64,000 nt of DNA, taken from IMG/VR virus record IMGVR_UViG_3300020055_000012, positions 15,405-79,404 of that record. One strand, 5' to 3'. Under the pieces are notes generated by a model. The model worked only from the letters and a program-made list of their open reading frames with translations, had not been told where the DNA came from and searched no databases. Within the stretch, counting starts at the first letter, position 1. Every line of letters starts with the position of its first letter. This document shows, one piece after another, positions 40,870-41,390 of this stretch. Made by a program: the position numbers and the translations under genes. Source of the stretch: a virus.

Positions 40870-41154
40870 GTGTCAAATAACAAACCAAGCTGGCAATCAA
40901 GATTTTATGTTTATTCAATGAGCATGGCAGAATTGGTTCGTTCTTATATTGCAAAAAAGAAAATGTCAACAGATGATTTAGCAAAAAAGATAAACATATC
41001 TAAAAGACAATCAAAACATATGTTGTCTGGGTCTTATGATTTTTCTATAGAAGAAATAGCTAAATTAGAACTTCTTTTTTTAGGTCATTATGATACTTAT
41101 GAAAAAATATTATTGATAGAAAAAATATCAAAACAAGAGGATTCATCGCTCTAA
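40870..41154 (+). CDS. XRE-like helix-turn-helix protein with YEKILLIEK tail
   Basis: MSTDDLAKKINISKRQ..MLSG..FSIEEIAKL. Confidence 0.65.
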   Translation: MSNNKPSWQSRFYVYSMSMAELVRSYIAKKKMSTDDLAKKINISKRQSKHMLSGSYDFSIEEIAKLELLFLGHYDTYEKILLIEKISKQEDSSL

Positions 41155-41390
41155 ATCAATTTGATAAGAGAGGAAACTCCAGACATCATTGCTTAAGGCA
41201 GGAGATAATGTAAAATACTTTTTACAAAAAGTATAAAAATTGTAAAATCTATTTTACTTTATTGATTGTACTGCCGAGGATGCAACACAAACAGACCTAG
41301 CAGGTGAGCAATGCTAAGGGTCGGGTAAGTGGCCAATAGATAAATGATGAAATTAAAACAGAATCTGGGTTACGCTCGTTTTGATATTTT
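41122..41390 (+). ncRNA. rnpB: Compact RNase P RNA
   Basis: GAGGAAACTCCAGAC (CR-I) pairs with ACAGAATCTGGGTTA (CR-V) to form P4; TAGATAAATGAT (CR-IV/P2); P1 AAAATATCAAAAC/GTTTTGATATTTT. Confidence 0.85.

What the first reader, a model, noticed from the sequence alone, without database searches (positions are those of the whole stretch)
41122..41390. Phage-encoded minimal RNase P RNA with a reduced, AT-rich specificity domain, overlapping a CDS end
Seen: ~265 nt; intact catalytic core with compensatory P4 changes (AACTCCAGA/TCTGGGTT); the region inside GGCAG...CTGCC is only ~70 nt of AT-rich hairpins with no recognisable CR-II/III; P1 overlaps the last codons of the HTH gene. Established: the S domain reads the tRNA T/D elbow. 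Inference: a relaxed-specificity RNase P suited to the phage's elbow-defective tRNAs. With the nearby YqeY protein it would form a self-contained tRNA supply module.
Basis: partly seen in the sequence, partly recalled or inferred. Interest (0 to 1): 0.7.

Follow-up and report, generated by a model that had tools for sequence, protein, structure and literature searches.

The report
Phage-encoded miniature RNase P ribozyme
A large salt-marsh phage carries, just after its tRNA genes, a 255-269-base cut-down copy of RNase P RNA (the ribozyme that trims new tRNAs); it keeps the whole catalytic half but has lost the half that reads the tRNA elbow, and it belongs to a conserved phage family that standard annotation misses and that I could not find described in print.

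Summary
Window 41122-41390(+) holds a bacterial type-A-derived RNase P RNA. Rfam RF00010 matches its full model span at 44.4 bits (E about 1e-12 to 1e-14), below the gathering score of 100, so routine annotation misses it. P1-P7, the P6 pseudoknot, P15-P17, the L15 GGU and conserved regions CR-I, CR-IV and CR-V are all present. P8-P14 (with CR-II/III) and P18 are gone. Inside P7 there is only GAG, a 69-nt AU-rich hairpin and a 7-nt linker.

It is a family member, not a relic. At least 10 distinct relatives (194-283 nt) come from viral contigs, metagenomes, two GenBank huge phages and the cultured Stenotrophomonas phage DLP6. They keep every helix through compensatory changes, and all 15 loci examined are co-oriented with tRNA arrays. 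A 220-nt contig from an RNA library matches only the RNA.

The layout matches what experiments found for S-domain-less type A RNAs: P6 and P15-17 needed, P18 dispensable. Most likely it is an active ribozyme that uses host RnpA to mature phage pre-tRNAs.

The YqeY link is weak. This scan has flagged the same class on many other genomes.

The parts
41122..41390 (+). Whole RNase P RNA gene, taken at the maximal P1. The Rfam match is 41129-41387.
   Evidence: RF00010 full-span match at 44.4 bits. 13-bp P1. Fold z = -4.95. An RNA-library contig matches 41149-41368 exactly.
41122..41139 (+). P1 5' strand (41122-41134) plus the GAG extension (41137-39). It pairs with 41375-41390.
   Evidence: P1 differs in every relative yet always pairs.
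41142..41147 (+). P2 5' strand UUCAUC, which pairs with GAUGAA at 41346-41351
   Evidence: Relatives show GCCAUC/GAUGGC, CUCCAC/GUGGAG, AUCCAC/GUGGAU, CCCUAC/GUAGGG and AACUGG/CCAGUU.
41149..41170 (+). P3 hairpin (CUCU..AUCA AUU UGAU..AGAG)
   Evidence: L155 has CCCA/UGGG in place of AUCA/UGAU.
41170..41183 (+). CR-I, J3/4 and the P4 5' strand (GAGGAAACUCCAGA), with the unpaired U at 41178
   Evidence: All 8 P4 pairs are kept in all sequences, and 4 of the 8 have changes on both sides.
41184..41187 (+). P5 5' strand CAUC, which pairs with GAUG at 41279-41282
   Evidence: Relatives show CACC/GGUG, CACA/UGUG and CUAC/GUAG.
41190..41194 (+). P6 pseudoknot 5' strand UGCUU in J5/7, which pairs with GAGCA at 41306-41310 in the P17 loop
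   Evidence: Seen directly in the sequences. L153 has GAGCAA/UUGCUC and DLP6 has GUGAGAA/UUCUCAC.
41197..41275 (+). P7 (GGCAG 41197-41201 with CUGCC 41271-41275) enclosing the S-domain remnant 41202-41270: GAG, an AU-rich hairpin and the linker GAUUGUA
   Evidence: The insert is 69 nt at 16% G+C. Relatives have unrelated inserts of 19-61 nt. No CR-II/III is present. About 140 S-domain positions of the Rfam model are deleted.
41283..41331 (+). J5/15 CAA, P15 (CAC 41286-88 with GUG 41329-31), the P16/P17 hairpin (41294-41322), and L15 GGGUAA (41323-28), which holds the GGU that binds the tRNA 3'-CCA in type A RNAs
   Evidence: P15 covaries (CCC/GGG, CUC/GAG, CCA/UGG). P17 covaries.
41337..41372 (+). 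CR-IV (UAGAUAAAU 41337-45), P2 3' strand, J2/4 and CR-V (ACAGAAUCUGGGUUA 41358-72, including the P4 3' strand 41364-71). No P18 lies between P15 and CR-IV; only GCCAA is there.
41396..41429 (+). Intrinsic-terminator-like hairpin plus T-run, starting 5 nt after P1
40870..41154 (+). HTH_26 (Cro/C1-type) ORF whose last 11 codons overlap P1-P3 of the RNA. The overlap is conserved in the L155 group.
40462..40860 (+). YqeY-like protein gene (GatB-tail-type putative tRNA-binding domain), in the same transcription unit
   Evidence: PF09424, E = 1e-18. Synteny.

Best explanation
This is a functional, phage-encoded RNase P ribozyme of bacterial type A ancestry, stripped to its catalytic domain. It is transcribed with YqeY and HTH, in a unit bounded by the terminators at 40031-40060 and 41396-41421, and then accumulates as a stable RNA of about 255-269 nt. 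It most likely binds the host's RnpA protein, because the phage records encode none. It would then cleave the 5' leaders of the phage's own polycistronic pre-tRNAs (more than 20 genes in three arrays just upstream), adding tRNA-maturation capacity during infection.

Substrate would be held by the catalytic domain and the protein: the acceptor stem and cleavage site by P4, J5/15 and J18/2; the 3' end by the L15 GGU where CCA is present; and the leader by RnpA. The T/D elbow would not be read, because the elbow-reading module (P9-P11, CR-II/III) is absent.

Shown: homology, the secondary structure with covariation, conservation as a family, linkage to tRNA arrays, and presence in an RNA library. 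Inferred: catalysis, use of host RnpA, and the benefit to the phage.
For: (1) Homology. RF00010 matches its full span here and in relatives: L130 78.5 bits and L132 53.5; L292 77.9, L295 76.2 and L145 43.0; DLP6 54.7.

(2) Selection on the fold.
- RNAalifold on a plain MAFFT alignment of 10 sequences recovers P4, P5, P7 and P17. Of 23 pairs, 13 have changes on both sides.
- Anchored counts over 26 positions of P2, P4, P5, P7 and P15 in 11 sequences give 100% pairing, with 20 positions changed on both sides. With the 3' partner slid 1-3 nt, pairing falls to 25-44% and 3-7 positions.
- A G-C / G.U / A-U series is seen at one P4 pair in WIN, L291 and L155.
- P6 is formed by three different complementary sequence pairs.

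(3) The unpaired core nucleotides stay constant while the helices drift: GAGGAAA, the bulged U, J5/15 CAA, L15 GGU, CR-IV and ACAGAA.

(4) What is kept and lost matches experiment. The E. coli C-domain alone cleaves correctly, about 100-120-fold slower, with or without C5. P6 and P15-17 matter in that context, while P18 is dispensable once the S-domain is gone. Archaeal type T RNAs show the same pattern (PMC5839562).

(5) Context. In 15 of 15 loci the RNA is co-oriented with tRNA arrays, and in 8 it lies within 40 nt of a tRNA.

(6) Leaders. The -1 nucleotide is U in 13 of 19 tRNA leaders, which fits bacterial RNase P preference (my own knowledge).

(7) Expression hint. RNA-library contig 41149-41368 is exact, and the upstream CDSs have no RNA-run cover.
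Against: - No activity was measured.
- The score is below Rfam's gathering threshold.
- Engineered S-less RNAs are about 100-fold slower, so it is unclear that such an enzyme adds useful capacity beside the host's own.
- Only 3-4 of about 20 tRNA genes encode CCA, so the conserved L15 GGU may often lack its ligand at the time of cleavage.
- No RnpA was found in five phage records. Only one of these is about 89% complete, so the protein partner is purely inferred.
- The RNA-library evidence is one contig at depth 3.5, and DNA carry-over cannot be excluded.
- No promoter-like site lies directly upstream of the RNA, so its 5' end must come from processing that I cannot show.
Confidence: 0.65

Rival explanations
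1. It is an RnpA decoy or regulator. On this reading the RNA folds like the RNase P catalytic domain and binds host RnpA, or pre-tRNA, but does not cleave usefully. It would titrate the protein away from host RNase P to depress host tRNA maturation or to redirect it.
For: - The only viral RNase P-like RNA I found in the literature (camelpox) was inactive in vitro and was discussed as a possible decoy (PMC3001073).
- The S-domain and P18 are lost.
- No phage RnpA was found.
- Activity is unmeasured.
Against: - A decoy needs the protein-binding surface, not the active site. Yet the bulged U, J3/4, J5/15, ACAGAA and the L15 GGU are invariant across members whose helices have all been rewritten.
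- Depressing RNase P would also harm the phage's own arrays of more than 20 tRNAs, with which the RNA is always linked.
Confidence: 0.12
2. This is the first reader's version: an active RNase P with relaxed specificity, selected because the phage's tRNAs have defective elbows (collapsed D arms) that a normal S-domain would reject.
For: - The elbow-reading module is absent.
- Relaxed ARAGORN calls one low-scoring extra tRNA at 35946-36025.
- One tRNA carries a group I intron.
Against: - 19 tRNAs score 53-76 bits with normal T arms.
- Nothing tRNA-like scores at E <= 1 in 35857-36100.
- Relatives with the same S-less design sit among canonical tRNAs.
- Host RNase P with a full S-domain would process canonical phage tRNAs anyway.
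Confidence: 0.07
3. It is a decaying remnant, that is, a pseudogene of a captured bacterial rnpB that is losing parts and has no function.
For: - Large deletions relative to type A.
- An AT-rich, non-conserved insert.
- A score below the gathering threshold.
- Overlap with a CDS.
Against: - Compensatory changes occur in at least six helices across at least 10 distinct sequences from separate studies and habitats.
- The same deletions (S-domain and P18) recur, with P6 and P15-17 always retained.
- Linkage to tRNA arrays holds in 15 of 15 loci.
- There is an RNA-library contig.
Confidence: 0.03
4. It is an active ribozyme whose missing S-domain, or RnpA, is replaced by a phage protein. The neighbouring YqeY (a GatB-tail-type domain) would hold the tRNA body in trans.
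For: - YqeY-HTH-RNA synteny is conserved in L155, L291 and L297.
- A YqeY homologue (28% identity, E = 5e-11) lies directly downstream of the RNA in the unrelated contig L154 (weak Pfam support).
- From my own knowledge, YqeY/GatB tail domains bind tRNA.
Against: - YqeY is not detected at E <= 0.001 in 10 other RNA-bearing phage records, one of them 89% complete.
- The DLP6 neighbour is unrelated.
- L154's RNA still has CR-II/III-like strings, so the adjacency is not tied to S-domain loss.
Confidence: 0.08

Closest known systems
Bacterial type A RNase P RNA (rnpB; E. coli M1 RNA; Rfam RF00010)
   Same: It shares P1-P5, the P6 pseudoknot, P7 and P15-P17 with the L15 GGU. It also shares CR-I, CR-IV and CR-V with the bulged U in P4. 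RF00010 matches it end to end.
   Different: - It has 255-269 nt instead of about 350-400.
- P8-P14 with CR-II/III (the tRNA elbow reader) and P18 are absent.
- P4 carries a C-G where the consensus has G-C.
- It scores 44 bits against the gathering score of 100.
- It is encoded by a phage, next to tRNA arrays, and overlaps a CDS.
Archaeal type T RNase P RNA (Pyrobaculum and relatives; as summarised in PMC5839562)
   Same: It is a natural RNase P RNA of about 200 nt with a degenerated S-domain, P6 retained and P18 absent. The solution is the same.
   Different: Type T is archaeal, chromosomal, the cell's only RNase P RNA, and works with archaeal proteins. This RNA is of bacterial type A descent (J5/15, L15 GGU, CR-IV) and is an accessory gene of a virus. 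The reduction is convergent; this RNA is not a member of type T.
Engineered E. coli C-domain ribozymes (Eco CP RPR and its delP18 derivative; PMC5839562)
   Same: The helices kept and removed are almost the same. In those constructs P6 and P15-17 are needed, P18 is dispensable, and cleavage is accurate.
   Different: Those are laboratory constructs and about 100-fold slower. This is a natural gene that also keeps P7 and a small conserved junction (GAG ... hairpin ... linker ending in YA).
Reduced RNase P RNAs of CPR bacteria (PMC8172020), and Mycoplasma fermentans (276 nt; cited there)
   Same: These are bacterial RNAs lacking P12, P13, P14 and P18 and missed by default searches. Phage contigs L144 and L154 resemble this grade of reduction.
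   Different: They keep an S-domain core. The window's RNA has none. Some CPR forms also lack the L15 UGG/GGU motif, which this RNA keeps.
[quoted passage not shown]
   Same: It is an RNase P RNA homologue encoded by a virus.
   Different: It belongs to a eukaryotic virus, is of the eukaryotic H1 RNA type, was inactive in vitro, and is not linked to tRNA genes.

Membership tests
Bacterial RNase P class A (RF00010) | Covariance-model score at or above the curated gathering score (100 bits) | tested here: not met
   44.4 bits with full model span, E = 1.7e-12 and 4.6e-14. The shortfall comes from about 140 deleted S-domain positions plus P18.
Bacterial RNase P class A (RF00010) | Catalytic core: CR-I and CR-V forming P4 with a bulged U, plus J3/4 GAGGAAA and J2/4 ACAGAA | tested here: met
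   All 8 P4 pairs are kept in every sequence, with covariation.
Bacterial RNase P class A (RF00010) | CR-IV (J18/2 AGAURAAU) followed by the P2 3' strand | tested here: met
   UAGAUAAAU at 41337-45. P2 pairs over 6 bp and covaries.
Bacterial RNase P class A (RF00010) | Type A hallmark: the P6 pseudoknot between J5/7 and the P17 loop, where type B instead has P5.1/P15.1 | tested here: met
   UGCUU (41190-94) pairs with GAGCA (41306-10). L153 and DLP6 use different complementary pairs.
Bacterial RNase P class A (RF00010) | P15/P16 internal loop with the GGU that pairs with the tRNA 3'-RCCA | tested here: met
   GGGUAA at 41323-28 between P16 and P15.
Bacterial RNase P class A (RF00010) | Specificity domain: P8-P14 with CR-II/CR-III (J11/12-J12/13), which reads the T/D elbow | tested here: not met
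   Only 69 nt of 16% G+C lie inside P7 and no CR-II/III strings are present. The model's S-domain positions are deleted. Full-size relatives L130, L157 and L286-288 do have these strings.
Bacterial RNase P class A (RF00010) | P18 with a GNRA loop docking into P8 | tested here: not met
   Five nucleotides (GCCAA) lie between P15 3' and CR-IV.
Bacterial RNase P class A (RF00010) | Endonucleolytic removal of pre-tRNA 5' leaders, and holoenzyme formation with RnpA | not testable with these tools
No RnpA (PF00825) was found in five phage records, so a host protein is inferred.
Archaeal type T RNase P RNA | Archaeal C-domain features and chromosomal origin in Thermoproteaceae, with a degenerated S-domain, P6 present and P18 absent | tested here: inconclusive
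   The architecture matches the description in PMC5839562. The best Rfam family here is bacterial class A, and the host genome is a phage. It works like type T but is not a member. The type T model was not scored separately.

The most novel reading that the evidence does not exclude
Tailed phages with large tRNA arrays carry their own lineage of naturally S-domain-less bacterial-type RNase P ribozymes, down to 194 nt. In this lineage the lost elbow-reading domain, and perhaps RnpA, is replaced in trans by a phage protein such as the adjacent YqeY tRNA-binding domain. That would be an RNA-to-protein hand-over of substrate recognition, of the kind otherwise known only from archaeal, eukaryal and organellar RNase P evolution.
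Probability: 0.08. Interest if true: 0.9.

Novelty: new variant of a known kind. Interest (0 to 1): 0.75.

Why it matters
RNase P RNA is regarded as a strictly cellular housekeeping ribozyme. Its two-domain design, catalytic plus elbow-reading, is close to universal in bacteria.

This element and its relatives show that viruses of bacteria maintain, under selection, a version reduced to the catalytic domain. The relatives include a cultured Stenotrophomonas phage and deposited huge-phage genomes in which the gene is unannotated. The reduction parallels archaeal type T RNAs and reproduces what deletion experiments on E. coli M1 RNA predicted.

If the RNA is active, three things follow:
- It would be among the smallest natural RNase P ribozymes.
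- It would give a natural series from about 300 nt down to 194 nt for studying which parts the enzyme really needs.
- It would add tRNA 5' maturation to the list of translation-related functions that large phages bring with them.

In practice, annotation pipelines that use Rfam gathering scores miss the whole class.

Tried and rejected
- The default Rfam gathering scan of the window gave no RNase P hit. This reflects the threshold, not absence.
- blastn of 3 kb, and of the RNA alone, against GenBank phages gave nothing or only hits in the AT-rich insert.
- Exact 14-16-mer scans of viral contigs were mostly chance hits.
- The P16/17-L15 pattern scan was noise.
- My first 3' regex was off by one, and one slice bug dumped sequence.
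- MAFFT could not align P1-P3 and the inserts, so P1, P2, P3 and P15 were analysed by motif anchors. Their partners were found by complementarity search in short windows, which inflates the 100% figure for those helices. Only P4 and P5 are purely position-anchored.
- I did not build a covariance model of my own. The model length of about 200 positions would probably exceed the calibration limit.
- RnpA (PF00825) was not found in five phage records, and a CCA-adding enzyme (PF01743) was not found in this record. The records are fragments, so neither result shows absence.
- YqeY as a general partner is rejected as a rule.
- The WOR-3 MAG RNAs share only the P4 C-G variant and are otherwise ordinary full-size type A, so no donor can be named.
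- The parts of the 3-kb stretch without RNA-run cover are not evidence of silence.
- Literature searches for a phage-encoded RNase P RNA found nothing. The library is incomplete, so this is not proof that none exists.

Full report
**What is there.**
The window is part of a 79.4-kb IMG/VR viral contig that CheckV rates 24% complete. Its content is that of a tailed phage: a pre-neck appendage protein, an SbcCD-like nuclease, a helicase and gp23-like fragments. It recurs in salt-marsh metagenomes.

At 41122-41390(+) lies an RNA gene that the Rfam bacterial RNase P class A model matches over its full span (1-367). The score is 44.4 bits, with E = 1.7e-12 on a 701-nt search of all families and E = 4.6e-14 in the whole record. 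That is below the curated gathering score of 100, so the default scan does not list it. The fold is much more stable than shuffles (z = -4.95).

**Anatomy.**
- P1: 13 bp, 41122-34 with 41378-90.
- P2: UUCAUC with GAUGAA.
- P3: a small hairpin at 41149-70.
- CR-I and P4: GAGGAAACUCCAGA from 41170, pairing with UCUGGGUU at 41364-71, with the usual unpaired U at 41178.
- P5: CAUC with GAUG.
- P6: J5/7 is AUUGCUUAA, and its UGCUU can pair with GAGCA in the P17 loop. This is the type A P6 pseudoknot.
- P7: GGCAG with CUGCC.
- After P7: J5/15 CAA, P15 (CAC with GUG), P16/P17, and an L15 loop GGGUAA that holds the GGU which pairs with tRNA 3'-CCA in type A enzymes.
- CR-IV: UAGAUAAAU. CR-V: ACAGAAUCUGGGUUA.

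Two things are missing.
- Everything inside P7. In place of P8-P14 with CR-II/III there are 69 nt of 16% G+C, comprising GAG, a long imperfect AU hairpin and the linker GAUUGUA.
- P18, which is replaced by GCCAA.

An intrinsic-terminator-like hairpin with a T-run begins 5 nt after P1. The HTH_26 ORF (40870-41154) overlaps the first 33 nt.

**It is one member of a conserved family.**
Pattern scans of viral contigs, metagenomes and GenBank phages found relatives. Python screening followed.

- The closest group is L155, L291 and L297, which share YqeY-HTH-RNA synteny (YqeY 87-90% identical, HTH 66%).
- More distant members are L132 (194 nt), L295, L292, L145, L300, L298, L293 and L153.
- Two deposited, unannotated huge-phage genomes carry diverged members: LR745206.1 and LR756511.1.
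- The cultured Stenotrophomonas phage DLP6 has one at KU682439.2 105774-106022. It scores 54.7 bits (E = 3e-17) on RF00010 and lies in an unannotated gap 3 nt before tRNA-Arg.

Rfam scores of the relatives are 43-78 bits, all full-span and all below the gathering score.

All members share the design P7, GAG, one hairpin, and a linker of about 7 nt ending in YA. The hairpin has 3-4 bp in the smallest members and is expanded and unrelated in sequence in the others; inserts run from 19 to 69 nt.

Full-size relatives with CR-II/III also exist in phage contigs (L130, which is flanked directly by tRNAs, and L157). Another grade of reduction keeps CR-II/III-like strings but loses P12-14 and most of P15-17 (L144, L154).

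**Selection on the structure.**
RNAalifold on a plain MAFFT alignment of 10 sequences had no knowledge of my anchors. It recovers P4 (with the unpaired U), P5, P7 and P17. Of its 23 pairs, 13 have both sides changed with pairing kept.

Motif-anchored counts over 26 positions of P2, P4, P5, P7 and P15 in 11 sequences give 100% canonical pairs, with 20 positions changed on both sides. When the 3' partner is slid by 1-3 nt, pairing falls to 25-44% and only 3-7 positions show such changes. The caveat is that the partners of P2, P7 and P15 were located by complementarity in short windows. P4 and P5 (12 positions) are purely position-anchored and also pair at 100%.

One P4 pair shows the full G-C, G.U, A-U series in WIN, L291/L297 and L155. 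P6 is made by three different complementary pairs: UGCUU/GAGCA, GAGCAA/UUGCUC in L153, and GUGAGAA/UUCUCAC in DLP6. Meanwhile the unpaired core nucleotides do not change. This is purifying selection on an RNase P catalytic fold, not decay.

**Context and expression.**
In all 15 loci examined the RNA lies on the same strand as a tRNA array (3-27 tRNAs per locus). In 8 of them it is within 40 nt of a tRNA.

In the window it ends the unit that follows tRNA array 3: terminator at 40031-60, then ORF123, YqeY, HTH, the RNA, and the terminator at 41396.

Four salt-marsh metatranscriptome runs hold small parts of the 3-kb stretch. One 220-nt contig matches 41149-41368 exactly, wholly inside the RNA. 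The three upstream protein genes have no cover in any RNA run, and tRNA stretches of the same phage are covered. This is contig-level, low-depth evidence, so it is no more than a hint that a stable RNA accumulates.

**How it most likely works.**
Experiments on E. coli M1 RNA show several things (PMC5839562).
- The catalytic domain alone cleaves at the correct site, about 100-120-fold slower, with or without the C5 protein.
- In that context the P6 contact and P15-17 matter.
- P18, whose role is to dock onto P8 of the S-domain, becomes dispensable.
- Archaeal type T RNAs show the same pattern.

The phage RNAs keep exactly P6 and P15-17 and drop exactly the S-domain and P18.

I therefore read the element as an active minimal RNase P RNA that uses host RnpA and matures the phage's own polycistronic pre-tRNAs. 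No PF00825 protein is found in five phage records, one of which is 89% complete. Leaders with U at -1 in 13 of 19 genes fit bacterial RNase P preference (the preference itself is my own knowledge). Catalysis, the protein partner and the selective benefit are all inferred. My confidence in this full reading is 0.65, and about 0.95 that it is a genuine RNase P RNA homologue under selection.

**What is not supported.**
- The window's 19 Rfam tRNAs score 53-76 bits with normal T arms.
- Relaxed ARAGORN adds four more tRNA calls.
- The stretch said to hold two D-arm-collapsed tRNAs gives no tRNA match even at E <= 1.
- The same S-less design occurs in phages whose neighbouring tRNAs are canonical.

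The YqeY 'module' has limited support. Synteny holds in the nearest relatives, and there is one independent adjacency (L154, with weak Pfam support). But no YqeY is detected at E <= 0.001 in 10 other RNA-bearing records (these include L154's own record, where the Pfam search misses that weak homologue), and the DLP6 neighbour is unrelated.

**Rivals.**
- An RnpA decoy (0.12). This is hard to square with the invariant active-site nucleotides and with the linkage to the phage's own tRNAs.
- A protein-assisted version using YqeY (0.08).
- A pseudogene (0.03), which the covariation nearly excludes.

**Origin.**
The P4 C-G variant is rare. In 185,579 species genomes, the C-variant CR-IV...CR-V module occurs on only three MAG contigs, two of them from candidate division WOR-3. 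Their RNAs are ordinary full-size type A and lack the family's other signatures. No donor can be named.

**Novelty.**
Seven full-text searches found no description of a phage-encoded RNase P RNA. The nearest items are the inactive camelpox RNase P-like RNA and the reduced CPR bacterial forms. The library is incomplete, so this is absence of evidence only.

This scan's own notes show that the same class was flagged and confirmed on many other genomes. One note's lead, phage DLP6, was tested here and holds.

I class the element as a new variant of a known kind: a natural, virus-borne, S-domain-less bacterial-type RNase P RNA.

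Noticed in passing
window 32522-32805 (intron 32546-32741): A tRNA-Arg(UCU) gene is split in its anticodon loop by a group I intron. RF00028 scores 60.9 bits, above its gathering score of 50 (E = 5e-15). The whole-window gathering scan had not listed it.
   Followed up: yes
window 35683-35781: A 99-nt spacer between tRNA-Phe and tRNA-Met forms a long imperfect hairpin (GCUAUAUGUAUGUGG ... CCACACAUAGC). It is not a tRNA and no Rfam family matched. tRNA processing would release it as a small RNA.
   Followed up: no
window 39467-39547: An 81-nt gap between tRNA-Gly and tRNA-Trp in an otherwise tightly packed array has no tRNA call.
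   Followed up: no
window 32353-40031: Only 3-4 of about 20 tRNA genes encode the 3'-CCA (Asn, Ala, Cys and the intron-bearing Arg). No CCA-adding enzyme (PF01743) was found in the 24%-complete record, although the RNase P RNA keeps the CCA-binding GGU.
   Followed up: partly
L144:5380-5694(-) and L154:657-931(-): Other viral contigs show a second, different grade of reduced RNase P RNA. The CR-II/III-like strings (GGAACAGAGACGAG..GUGAAACGGC) are kept, while P12-P14 and most of P15-17 are lost. This resembles the reduced CPR bacterial forms. L144's record is classed as a provirus.
   Followed up: partly
L305:2275-2523 (KU682439.2 105774-106022): The cultured Stenotrophomonas phage DLP6 has an unannotated 249-nt S-reduced RNase P RNA, 3 nt upstream of tRNA-Arg(CCG). 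It gives a tractable system for testing this class.
   Followed up: yes
L301:1460-1690 (LR745206.1) and L302:1400-1600 (LR756511.1): Deposited huge-phage genomes of 635 and 595 kb, without annotation, carry diverged members of the family with altered CR-I and CR-V (for example GGAGAAACUUCGAC with GCAAAAUGUCGGGUA). They fall below the Rfam search threshold used here.
   Followed up: partly
window 41091-41154 and L155 (the same position): The HTH protein's C-terminus carries the YxKxLLxEK motif (YEKILLIEK here, YEKKLLTEK in L155), followed by ..EDSSL*, which is encoded by the RNA's P2/P3 strands. Differences in the overlap follow the RNA's base-pairing.
   Followed up: partly
L286, L287, L288 (WOR-3 and uncultured MAG contigs): These cellular full-size type A RNase P RNAs carry the same rare P4 C-G variant (GAGGAAACUCCGGA with UCCGGGUUA) that marks many of the phage RNAs.
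   Followed up: partly
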